Origin: Escherichia coli
GTDB taxonomy: Bacteria; Pseudomonadota; Gammaproteobacteria; Enterobacterales; Enterobacteriaceae
Direction: 5' to 3' (one strand)
Length of the DNA stretch: 64,000 nucleotides
NCBI RefSeq assembly: GCF_030013595.1
Contig: NZ_CP122768.1
Position numbers: made by a program. Position 1 is the stretch's first letter. The number at the start of each line of letters is the position of its first letter. Below, in pieces: positions 60,001 to 61,320 of the stretch.

Positions 60001-61320
60001 CGCACCCGCCGCCATTGAATCGTTATAACAGGCTACCGCAGTGAAATTCCTTCCTCGTCCCAAAAGCTCGGTCATTGCCTGTTCGCCGCCGCTTTCGTCT
60101 GGTTCGCCAAATGTCACCAGCCGATCATTGGCCGGAATACCACTTTCAGCAAGGGCATCATAATACCCTTGCAGACGATCTTCGGCGTCAGAAATAGAGT
60201 GGTTAGAGCACAGATAACCAATGCGGGTATGACCTTGCTGAATTAAATGACGCGTTGCCAGCCAGGCACCGTAACGATCGTCCAGAGCAATACAACGATT
60301 TTCAAAGCCAGGCAGGATACGGTTGATCAGCACCATACCGGGCATTTGTTTCATTAATGAGGCTAAATCGGCATCCGGGATCATTTTGGCATGGACAACC
60401 AGCGCAGCACAGCGATGGCGGATCAGTTGCTCAATGGCCTGACGCTCTTTTTGTTCGTTGTGGTAACCGTTGCCAATCAATAAAAAATTACCAGTGTGAT
60501 AAGCCACCTGTTCGACCGCTTTCACCATTGCACCGAAAAACGGATCGGAAACATCACCAACGACCAGGCCGACCGTTTCAGTGGTCTGCTGCGCCAGCGC
60601 ACGGGCGTTGGCGTTCGGGTGATAGCTAAGAGACTCCATTGCACTATGCACAGCCAGCCGGGAAGCTTCGCTGGCTTTGGGTGAATTATTAATGACGCGG
60701 GAAACGGTGGCGACTGAAACGCCTGCCAGTCGGGCTACATCCTTTATTGTCGCCATGAAAATACCTTAGTGGGTAAACGCTTACATTGTTTCAGTGTTAC
60801 GGAAAACGCCCGTTGGTTCAAGGGGCGGCGTGTTTTCATCGTGGGAATGTGAGCCAAACGCAAATAAGTAAGACAAAAAAAGAGATTGCAAACCTTTGGT
60901 TACACTTTGCGAAACGCTGTTGCGATTGACCGCTGGTGGCGTTTGGCTTCAGGTTGCTAAAGTGGTGATCCCAGAGGTATTGATAGGTGAAGTCAACTTC
61001 GGGTTGAGCACATGAATTACACCAGCCTGCGCAGATGCGCAGGTTTTTTTTTGCCGGTCATCAATCTGTAACAGTAACCGACAATTTACACACCTCGTTG
61101 CATTTCCCTTCATTCCTTTGCGTTTTCTCGCTGGCGAAGAGTCGTCGTGCAGACCACAATCAAGATCCCAGAGGTATTGATTGGTGAGATTATTCGGTAC
61201 GCTCTTCGTACCCTGTCTCTTGCACCAACCTGCGCGGATGCGCAGGTTTTTTTTCGCACCTAATTTACTGTCGCTCGCGTTCTTTATCTCGTGTAATCTC
61301 CCTCCATTCGCTTTTACTGA

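What the first reader, a model, noticed from the sequence alone, without database searches (positions are those of the whole stretch)
60970..61254. Tandem OmrB/OmrA sRNA genes between galR and aas
Two adjacent units of about 85 nt share the 5' end (CCCAGAGGTATTGAT) and terminator hairpin but differ in the middle, matching the known OmpR-regulated paralogs OmrA and OmrB. They are listed because the ORF track cannot see them and the region could otherwise be mistaken for a repeat.
Basis: established knowledge. Interest (0 to 1): 0.2.

Follow-up and report, generated by a model that had tools for sequence, protein, structure and literature searches.

The report
Known E. coli sRNA genes omrB/omrA
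The flagged stretch holds the two well-studied small regulatory RNA genes omrB and omrA of Escherichia coli, letter-for-letter identical to the laboratory strain K-12, so the finding is correct but ordinary.

Summary
Confirmed and already known. Window 60970-61051 (+) is exactly the 82-nt K-12 omrB gene. Window 61167-61254 (+) is exactly the 88-nt K-12 omrA gene. Both match Rfam RF00079 (OmrA-B) end to end, at 86.1 and 96.6 bits against a gathering score of 40. They lie between galR (59725-60756, -) and aas (61342-63501, +), in the K-12 order galR, omrB, omrA, aas.

The two units start 197 nt apart. They are identical at nt 1-15 and differ at 1 of the first 21 and 3 of the last 35 positions. 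Their centres are unrelated and each forms its own hairpin.

The whole intergenic region differs from K-12 by two substitutions far upstream of omrB and one extra T in the omrB terminator tail. It is present in 5423 of 5426 complete E. coli genomes.

In a sample of 48 Enterobacterales loci, the terminator stem covaries and the galR-omr-aas order is usually kept.

The mechanism comes from published K-12 experiments. These are Hfq-dependent sRNAs activated by EnvZ-OmpR, and omrA also depends on sigma-S. Their shared 5' end pairs near target start sites and represses them.

Nothing novel was found.

The parts
60970..61051 (+). omrB gene (82-nt sRNA OmrB). It has a single-stranded 5' seed at nt 1-15, a GGUG/CACC stem enclosing a central hairpin, and a terminator hairpin with a U tail.
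   Evidence: It is an exact match to K-12 b4445. It matches Rfam RF00079 at 86.1 bits. The predicted fold is -26.6 kcal/mol, z = -2.9.
61167..61254 (+). omrA gene (88-nt sRNA OmrA). It has the same 5' seed and 3' terminator as omrB, with a different central hairpin (GGUACGCUCUUCGUACC).
   Evidence: It is an exact match to K-12 b4444. It matches Rfam RF00079 at 96.6 bits. The predicted fold is -29.5 kcal/mol, z = -2.7. The central hairpin is kept in 17 Enterobacteriaceae homologues.
61024..61052 (+). omrB intrinsic terminator: a 9-bp stem with a 4-nt loop, then a run of 9 T (61044-61052). K-12 has 8 T.
   Evidence: The terminator scan finds it. The extra T relative to K-12 shows in the alignment. 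The stem covaries across Enterobacterales.
61227..61254 (+). omrA intrinsic terminator: a 9-bp stem with a 4-nt loop, then a run of 8 T (61247-61254).
   Evidence: The terminator scan finds it. The stem covaries across Enterobacterales.
60891..60963 (+). omrB promoter region. Two conserved upstream blocks lie at 60891-60911 (-79..-59, AACCTTTGGTTACACTTTGCG) and 60916-60928 (-54..-42, GCTGTTGCGATTG). CGCTGG sits at about -38..-34. The -10 hexamer TAAAGT is at 60958-60963, with T at -12.
   Evidence: Conservation comes from the alignment of 16 tandem loci. The positions were read from the sequence. That these blocks bind OmpR is inferred. Published evidence is OmpR-P-dependent in vitro transcription from -114..+50 (PMC5175337) and -12T giving sigma-70 use (PMC12692685).
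61067..61160 (+). omrA promoter region. Conserved blocks are TGTAACA at 61067-61073 (-100..-94), about 61088-61105 (-79..-62) and TCATTCCTTTGCGTTTTC at 61110-61127 (-57..-40). GCTGG is at 61130-61134. The -10 hexamer CACAAT is at 61155-61160, with C at -12.
   Evidence: Conservation comes, where CACAAT is nearly invariant. The -12C is the published sigma-S specificity determinant of omrA (PMC12692685). The consensus sigma-70 scan finds no promoter here, as expected for activator-dependent, non-consensus promoters.
59725..60756 (-). galR, the divergently transcribed upstream neighbour that defines the locus.
   Evidence: It is a 343-aa ORF. K-12 and O157 annotate it as galR. The synteny is kept in other genera.
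61342..63501 (+). aas, the co-directional downstream neighbour that defines the locus.
   Evidence: It is a 719-aa ORF. K-12 and O157 annotate it as aas. The synteny is kept in other genera.

Best explanation
The region carries the two paralogous, independently transcribed small-RNA genes omrB (60970-61051) and omrA (61167-61254) of Escherichia coli.

Each gene has its own weak, activator-dependent promoter and its own Rho-independent terminator. [quoted passage not shown]

The RNAs bind Hfq. Their nearly identical single-stranded 5' end (nt 1 to about 21) pairs with short complementary stretches at or near the translation start of many mRNAs, including ompT, cirA, fepA, fecA, csgD, flhDC, btuB, dgcM and flgM. 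It also pairs with the ompR-envZ mRNA that encodes their own activator. Pairing blocks translation and promotes RNase E-dependent decay, which remodels the outer membrane, represses motility and biofilm regulators, and closes a negative feedback loop on OmpR. The divergent central regions give each RNA a few preferential targets.

Shown here: identity, family membership, anatomy, conservation, covariation and synteny. Taken from the literature on the identical K-12 genes: regulation, Hfq dependence and targets.
For: - Both genes are 100% identical to the annotated K-12 omrB and omrA.
- Both match Rfam RF00079 over the full model, at 86.1 and 96.6 bits against a gathering score of 40.
- Gene order and neighbours are the same as in K-12: lysR, lysA, galR, omrB, omrA, aas.
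- The 585-bp intergenic region differs from K-12 only at 60788 and 60826 (-182 and -144 from the omrB start) and by one extra T in the omrB T-tract. The two substitutions lie outside the -114..+50 fragment that supports OmpR-P activation in vitro (PMC5175337).
- The locus is present in 5423 of 5426 complete E. coli genomes, at 99% identity or more in 5284.
- Predicted folds leave the 5' 15 nt unpaired and end in a strong terminator hairpin plus U-tail.
- In 63 distinct homologues from Enterobacterales, 99.9% of stem cells pair, 3 of 7 terminator pairs show double compensatory changes (26 cells), and slid controls pair at only 19-61%.
- The -12T (omrB) and -12C (omrA) promoter features are present and conserved, as published (PMC12692685).
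- RNAduplex places the 5' end on the published sites of cirA (-17..-9), ompR (-18..-10) and ompT (+12..+21) (PMC2588501).
Against: No result argues against the identification. The limits are these:

- Expression, OmpR and sigma-S dependence, Hfq binding and target repression were not and cannot be tested with these tools. They are inherited from K-12 experiments.
- The computed seed-target duplex energies are only marginally better than those of shuffled sRNAs. The fraction of shuffles at least as good is 0.23-0.25 for cirA, 0.04-0.11 for ompR and 0.02-0.03 for ompT. Complementarity alone would not have identified the targets.
- The invariance of nt 1-15 in the cross-species set is by construction, because that motif was the search pattern.
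Confidence: 0.97

Rival explanations
1. The two units are copies of a non-coding dispersed repeat (REP/BIME/ERIC-like element) or simple terminator repeats with no product of their own.
For: Two direct-repeat families and an inverted repeat formed by the two hairpins are detected in the intergenic region.
Against: - There are only two copies in 64 kb, both on one strand and 197 nt apart. E. coli genomes have a median of one place each, so the sequence is not dispersed.
- Both units give full-length hits to a curated sRNA family and are identical to genes with mapped transcripts.
- The conserved 5' end lies upstream of the hairpin and is single-stranded, which a terminator repeat would not require.
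Confidence: 0.01
2. Only one of the two paralogues is functional in this strain; the other is a decaying duplicate.
For: - Some lineages carry a single Omr gene. Lelliottia and some Enterobacter loci have one copy between galR and aas, and the same is reported in PMC13425233.
- omrB is reported absent from Shigella boydii (PMC12692685).
- One E. coli genome has an IS3-family element inserted between omrB and omrA.
Against: In this window both transcribed regions and both promoter regions are base-for-base identical to K-12, where both RNAs are expressed and active (PMC2588501). The only change within a unit is one extra T in the omrB terminator tail, which is also present in E. albertii and other species.
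Confidence: 0.02
3. The units act mainly in cis, as leader or read-through elements that set transcription of the downstream aas-lplT genes, rather than as trans-acting RNAs.
For: - omr and aas are co-directional, with only 87 nt between the omrA terminator and the aas start codon.
- No consensus sigma-70 promoter was found in that gap.
- The synteny with aas is kept across genera, and a 2026 preprint notes it as suggestive of a link to membrane lipid turnover (10.64898/2026.06.26.734639).
Against: - Both units end in strong 9-bp G+C-rich hairpins with 8-9 U, typical of efficient terminators.
- Trans-acting function is demonstrated by compensatory mutations in K-12 (PMC2588501).
- The promoter scan is a crude consensus test that also missed the real omrA and omrB promoters, so its silence before aas means little.
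Confidence: 0.03

Closest known systems
E. coli K-12 omrA (b4444, formerly rygA/sraE) and omrB (b4445, formerly rygB); Rfam RF00079 OmrA-B
   Same: The transcribed sequences are identical (88 and 82 nt). Order, orientation, 197-nt spacing and neighbours (galR, aas) are the same. The promoter regions from -143 onward are identical.
   Different: There is one extra T in the omrB terminator T-run (T9 against T8), and two substitutions at -182 and -144 of omrB, near the galR side of the intergenic region. No functional consequence is expected.
Omr loci of other Enterobacterales (Citrobacter, Enterobacter, Kosakonia, Kluyvera, Serratia, Edwardsiella, Pantoea, Erwinia, Dickeya, Pectobacterium)
   Same: They share the 5' seed, the GGUG...CACC stem, the terminator hairpin, and usually the position between galR and aas.
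   Different: The central regions differ. The copy number is one or two. The spacing is 188-202 nt in most, 275 nt in Serratia grimesii and about 2 kb in Pantoea. The window has the canonical Escherichia form.
Other paralogous sibling sRNAs with a shared seed (for example Vibrio Qrr1-5, Pseudomonas PrrF1/2, E. coli/Salmonella GlmY/GlmZ)
   Same: The principle is the same: duplicated Hfq-dependent sRNAs with common seed regions and partly separate transcriptional inputs (from established knowledge; siblings are listed in 10.64898/2026.06.26.734639).
   Different: The sequences, regulators and targets are unrelated. There is no Rfam match to those families in the window.

Membership tests
OmrA-B sRNA family (Rfam RF00079) | Match to the family covariance model at or above the curated gathering score (40 bits) | tested here: met
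   The scores are 96.6 bits (61167-61254) and 86.1 bits (60970-61051). Both cover model positions 1-87 of 87 and neither is truncated.
OmrA-B sRNA family (Rfam RF00079) | Conserved 5' end CCCAGAGGUAUUGAU used as the seed, predicted single-stranded | tested here: met
   The motif is present at the first base of both units. It is unpaired in the OmrA minimum-free-energy fold and largely unpaired in the OmrB fold and in the Rfam consensus.
OmrA-B sRNA family (Rfam RF00079) | Rho-independent terminator (G+C-rich hairpin plus U-tail) as the 3' end and Hfq-binding module | tested here: met
   Both units have 9-bp stems followed by T9 or T8. The stem is supported by compensatory changes in 3 of 7 pairs across 63 sequences. 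Hfq binding itself was not tested.
E. coli omrA / omrB genes specifically | Sequence identity with the annotated K-12 genes b4444 and b4445 | tested here: met
   Exact string matches of 88 and 82 nt to the features annotated in NC_000913.3.
E. coli omrA / omrB genes specifically | Location in the galR-aas intergenic region, omrB proximal to galR, both co-directional with aas | tested here: met
   ORFs and annotations agree. The same arrangement is seen in other genera.
E. coli omrA / omrB genes specifically | Promoter determinants: -12C in the omrA -10 element (sigma-S dependence) and -12T in omrB (sigma-70) | tested here: met
   CACAAT lies at 61155-61160 and TAAAGT at 60958-60963, and both are conserved in the alignment. 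Their functional meaning comes from PMC12692685.
E. coli omrA / omrB genes specifically | Transcriptional activation by EnvZ-OmpR | not testable with these tools
   The promoter DNA from -143 to +1 is identical to K-12, where OmpR-P activates both promoters in vitro (PMC5175337).
E. coli omrA / omrB genes specifically | Hfq-dependent repression of targets by pairing of the 5' end (ompT, cirA, ompR and others) | tested here: inconclusive
   RNAduplex puts nt 1-9 on the published sites of K-12 cirA, ompR and ompT. The energies are only marginally better than shuffled controls, with 0.02-0.25 of shuffles at least as good. The experimental proof is in PMC2588501.

The most novel reading that the evidence does not exclude
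The conserved co-directional linkage of omrA to aas, with only 87 nt and no recognisable promoter between the omrA terminator and the aas start codon, could mean more than neighbourhood. Partial read-through of the omrA terminator might couple aas-lplT (lysophospholipid re-acylation) to EnvZ-OmpR and sigma-S. In that case the locus would work as an envelope-stress unit that acts both in trans (the sRNAs) and in cis (read-through). The extra T in this strain's omrB terminator would then be one of several small tuning knobs.
Probability: 0.05. Interest if true: 0.35.

Novelty: already known. Interest (0 to 1): 0.05.

Why it matters
The result matters only for annotation. These two genes are invisible to ORF-based tracks and are missing from the RefSeq/PGAP annotation of at least one genome with the identical sequence. 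Labelling 60970-61051 as omrB and 61167-61254 as omrA prevents the region from being called an unexplained repeat or an empty intergenic space. Biologically it is a textbook locus that is still being studied, with 2025-2026 papers on RstA-specific activation of omrB and on new metabolic targets. The window adds no new information to it.

Tried and rejected
- **Consensus sigma-70 promoter scan of 60700-61400.** It found no sites. I did not take this as evidence against transcription, because both promoters are known to be weak and activator-dependent. I located the -10 elements by hand from the known transcription starts.
- **Tandem Repeats Finder.** It reported nothing, because the copies are too diverged outside the ends.
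- **Exact 15-mer scan of genome contigs.** These were removed by requiring the GGTG...CACC-terminator architecture. The sample therefore says nothing about total distribution or about homologues with a variant seed.
- **RNAalifold on the OmrB-type set.** It did not recover the central hairpin. The likely cause is length variation misaligning the arms, and I did not pursue this.
- **Seed-target duplex energies against shuffles.** They were not convincingly significant. I report them as consistent, not as proof.
- **Small ORFs overlapping the units.** Examples are 61035-61187 (+, 50 aa) and 60949-61113 (-, 54 aa). I considered and dismissed them because they straddle terminators and promoters of known RNA genes, and I sought no supporting evidence.

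Full report
**Observation**

I read window 60600-61700. The motif CCCAGAGGTATTGAT occurs exactly twice in the 64-kb window, at 60970 and 61167, both on the + strand. Allowing 2 mismatches adds no further sites, against 0.08 expected by chance.

The repeat finder reports two direct-repeat families. One is a 24-nt 5' block (GATCCCAGAGGTATTGAT[A/T]GGTGA, 96% identical, spacing 197). The other is a 38-nt 3' block (89% identical, spacing 203).

Each 3' block is a 9-bp G+C-rich hairpin with a 4-nt loop followed by a T run. These lie at 61024-61045 with T9 and at 61227-61248 with T8.

Between the shared ends the two units do not align. Each forms its own central hairpin inside a GGUG/CACC stem (fold z-scores -2.9 and -2.7). 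Tandem Repeats Finder sees nothing.

**Identity**

Rfam's OmrA-B model (RF00079) matches both units over model positions 1-87. The scores are 86.1 bits for 60970-61051 and 96.6 bits for 61167-61254, against a gathering score of 40. These are the only sRNA-family hits in that part of the window.

The K-12 MG1655 record annotates omrA (b4444, 88 nt) and omrB (b4445, 82 nt) between aas and galR. Both K-12 sequences occur as exact strings in the window, at 61167-61254 and 60970-61051.

The neighbours match as well: lysR (57399-58334, -), lysA (58456-59718, +), galR (59725-60756, -) and aas (61342-63501, +).

The 585-bp galR-aas intergenic region differs from K-12 by G/C at 60788, C/T at 60826 and one extra T in the omrB terminator tail. 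It is 100% identical to many O157:H7 and other E. coli genomes. It is found in 5423 of 5426 complete E. coli genomes, at 99% identity or more in 5284 of them.

The RefSeq annotation of one such identical genome has no feature between galR and aas.

**Promoters**

The consensus sigma-70 scan finds no promoter. Counting back from the known starts gives TAAAGT at 60958-60963 for omrB (T at -12) and CACAAT at 61155-61160 for omrA (C at -12).

I aligned the upstream regions of 16 tandem loci from other Enterobacteriaceae.

- Both -10 elements are conserved.
- omrB has conserved blocks at -79..-59 and -54..-42.
- omrA has different conserved blocks: TGTAACA at -100..-94, then -79..-62 and -57..-40.
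- Both promoters share CGCTGG at about -38..-33, and the pairwise alignment of the two units also shows TTGCG.TT...CGCTGG in common. The ancestral duplication therefore included the core promoter.

This agrees with published work.

- OmpR-P activates both promoters in vitro from -114..+50 fragments (PMC5175337).
- The -12C makes omrA sigma-S dependent, while omrB with -12T is not (PMC12692685).
- The two promoters have distinct conserved motifs, and omrB is specifically activated by multicopy RstB-RstA (PMC13425233).

The two substitutions relative to K-12 lie at -182 and -144 of omrB, outside the tested fragment.

**Relatives elsewhere**

After I required the GGTG...CACC-terminator layout, 70 copies in 48 loci remained (63 distinct sequences). 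All were from Enterobacterales. The remaining hits were chance 15-mers in unrelated phyla.

Twenty-two loci carry two same-strand copies. The start-to-start distance is:

- 188-202 nt in most Enterobacteriaceae and in Edwardsiella ictaluri;
- 220 nt in Edwardsiella hoshinae;
- 275 nt in Serratia grimesii;
- about 2.03 kb in two Pantoea.

On the 63-sequence alignment, 99.9% of stem cells form standard pairs. Three of the seven terminator pairs show changes on both sides (26 cells: U-A to C-G, G-C to A-U, C-G to U-A). With the 3' partners slid by 1-3 columns, pairing falls to 19-61% with at most one double change. The GGUG/CACC stem never varies, so it carries no covariation evidence. The invariance of nt 1-15 is by construction of the search.

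The OmrA-type central hairpin is kept in 17 sequences. RNAalifold did not recover the OmrB-type hairpin.

tblastn with the window's Aas and GalR proteins shows galR(-)-omr-aas(+) in most loci whose flanks were retrieved. The single-copy loci in Lelliottia and two Enterobacter have an OmrA-type RNA directly next to galR. This matches the 'omrB promoter with omrA transcript' chimeras described in PMC13425233.

**How it works**

Because the genes and promoters are identical to K-12, I carry the mechanism over from K-12 experiments.

- Both RNAs bind Hfq and need Hfq and RNase E for target control.
- Compensatory mutations show that the conserved 5' end pairs with cirA (around -35..-10), with ompT (-15..+20) and with the ompR 5' UTR. 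The last of these gives negative feedback on their own activator (PMC2588501; PMC5175337).
- Later work adds csgD, flhDC, flgM, dgcM and btuB (preferentially OmrA, through its central region), and recently ppc, mqo, accBC and fabA.

As a direct check I ran RNAduplex with the window's RNAs against the K-12 translation-initiation regions. Nt 1-9 land on cirA -17..-9, ompR -18..-10 and ompT +12..+21, which are the published sites. The energies are only slightly better than for shuffled sRNAs: the fraction of shuffles at least as good is 0.23-0.25, 0.04-0.11 and 0.02-0.03. This is consistent with the published mechanism but is not independent proof.

**Rivals**

- *Dispersed repeat or bare terminator repeat.* Excluded by copy number, strand, the full-length family hits and identity to mapped transcripts.
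- *One decayed paralogue.* Unlikely, because both units and both promoters equal K-12.
- *Cis role toward aas by read-through.* Cannot be excluded, but it has only weak support: 87 nt with no recognisable promoter, and conserved synteny. The strong terminators argue against it as the main function.

**Verdict**

The finding is correct in observation and interpretation. It is an already known, well-characterised locus with no unusual feature in this window. Interest is low.

Noticed in passing
window 6970-21100: An integrative element of about 14.06 kb sits at tRNA-Gly(CCC) (6970-7043, glyU). It is bounded by an 18-bp direct repeat, TTCCCTTCGCCCGCTCCA, at 7026-7043 and 21083-21100. It encodes a tyrosine integrase (7169-8422), an int-alpA RNA (Rfam RF02996, 8467-8534), an AntA-type antirepressor (9851-10651), a D5-like primase/helicase (12636-14384), a ProQ/FinO-family protein (15575-16117) and a DUF2213 protein (17465-18118). 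This looks like a phage satellite or phage-inducible island. No complete E. coli genome covers 80% or more of the 15-kb query spanning it (window 7044-22000); the best cover 69-70% at 96-98% identity. The O157:H7 strain whose omr region is identical appears to lack it: the glyU-aas distance is 41.4 kb there and 54 kb here.
   Followed up: partly
window ~24000-52000: A low-G+C block (32-42% against about 50% in the flanks) corresponds to the ETT2 type III secretion island (eiv/epa/epr genes, ygeG/ygeH/yqeH-K) as annotated in O157:H7. This explains the window's overall 43.5% G+C.
   Followed up: partly
window ~61104 (equivalent site in L004, NZ_CP025903.1): E. coli strain 300709 has an IS3-family element inserted between omrB and omrA, inside the conserved omrA promoter region. 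This would separate omrA from its upstream activator sites. It was the weakest row shown, and 18 of the 5423 matching genomes in all have no single place covering 80% or more of the query.
   Followed up: partly
L032 2747-4879; L061 647-2770 (Pantoea): In two Pantoea genomes the two Omr-type genes are about 2.03 kb apart instead of about 200 nt. The upstream copy is unusually short (76 nt), with a minimal central region. What lies between them was not examined.
   Followed up: no
window 61044-61052: The omrB terminator tail has 9 T where K-12 has 8. The same T9 is seen in E. albertii and several Citrobacter. It is probably neutral.
   Followed up: yes
window 61255-61341: Only 87 nt separate the omrA terminator from the aas start codon, and the consensus scan finds no sigma-70-like promoter there. 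The source of aas transcription was not determined. The same scan also misses the real omr promoters.
   Followed up: no
L002 (NZ_AP018488.1) 2998-3582: The RefSeq/PGAP annotation of an O157:H7 genome with the identical intergenic sequence carries no omrA or omrB features, whereas the K-12 record does. This is an annotation gap rather than biology.
   Followed up: yes
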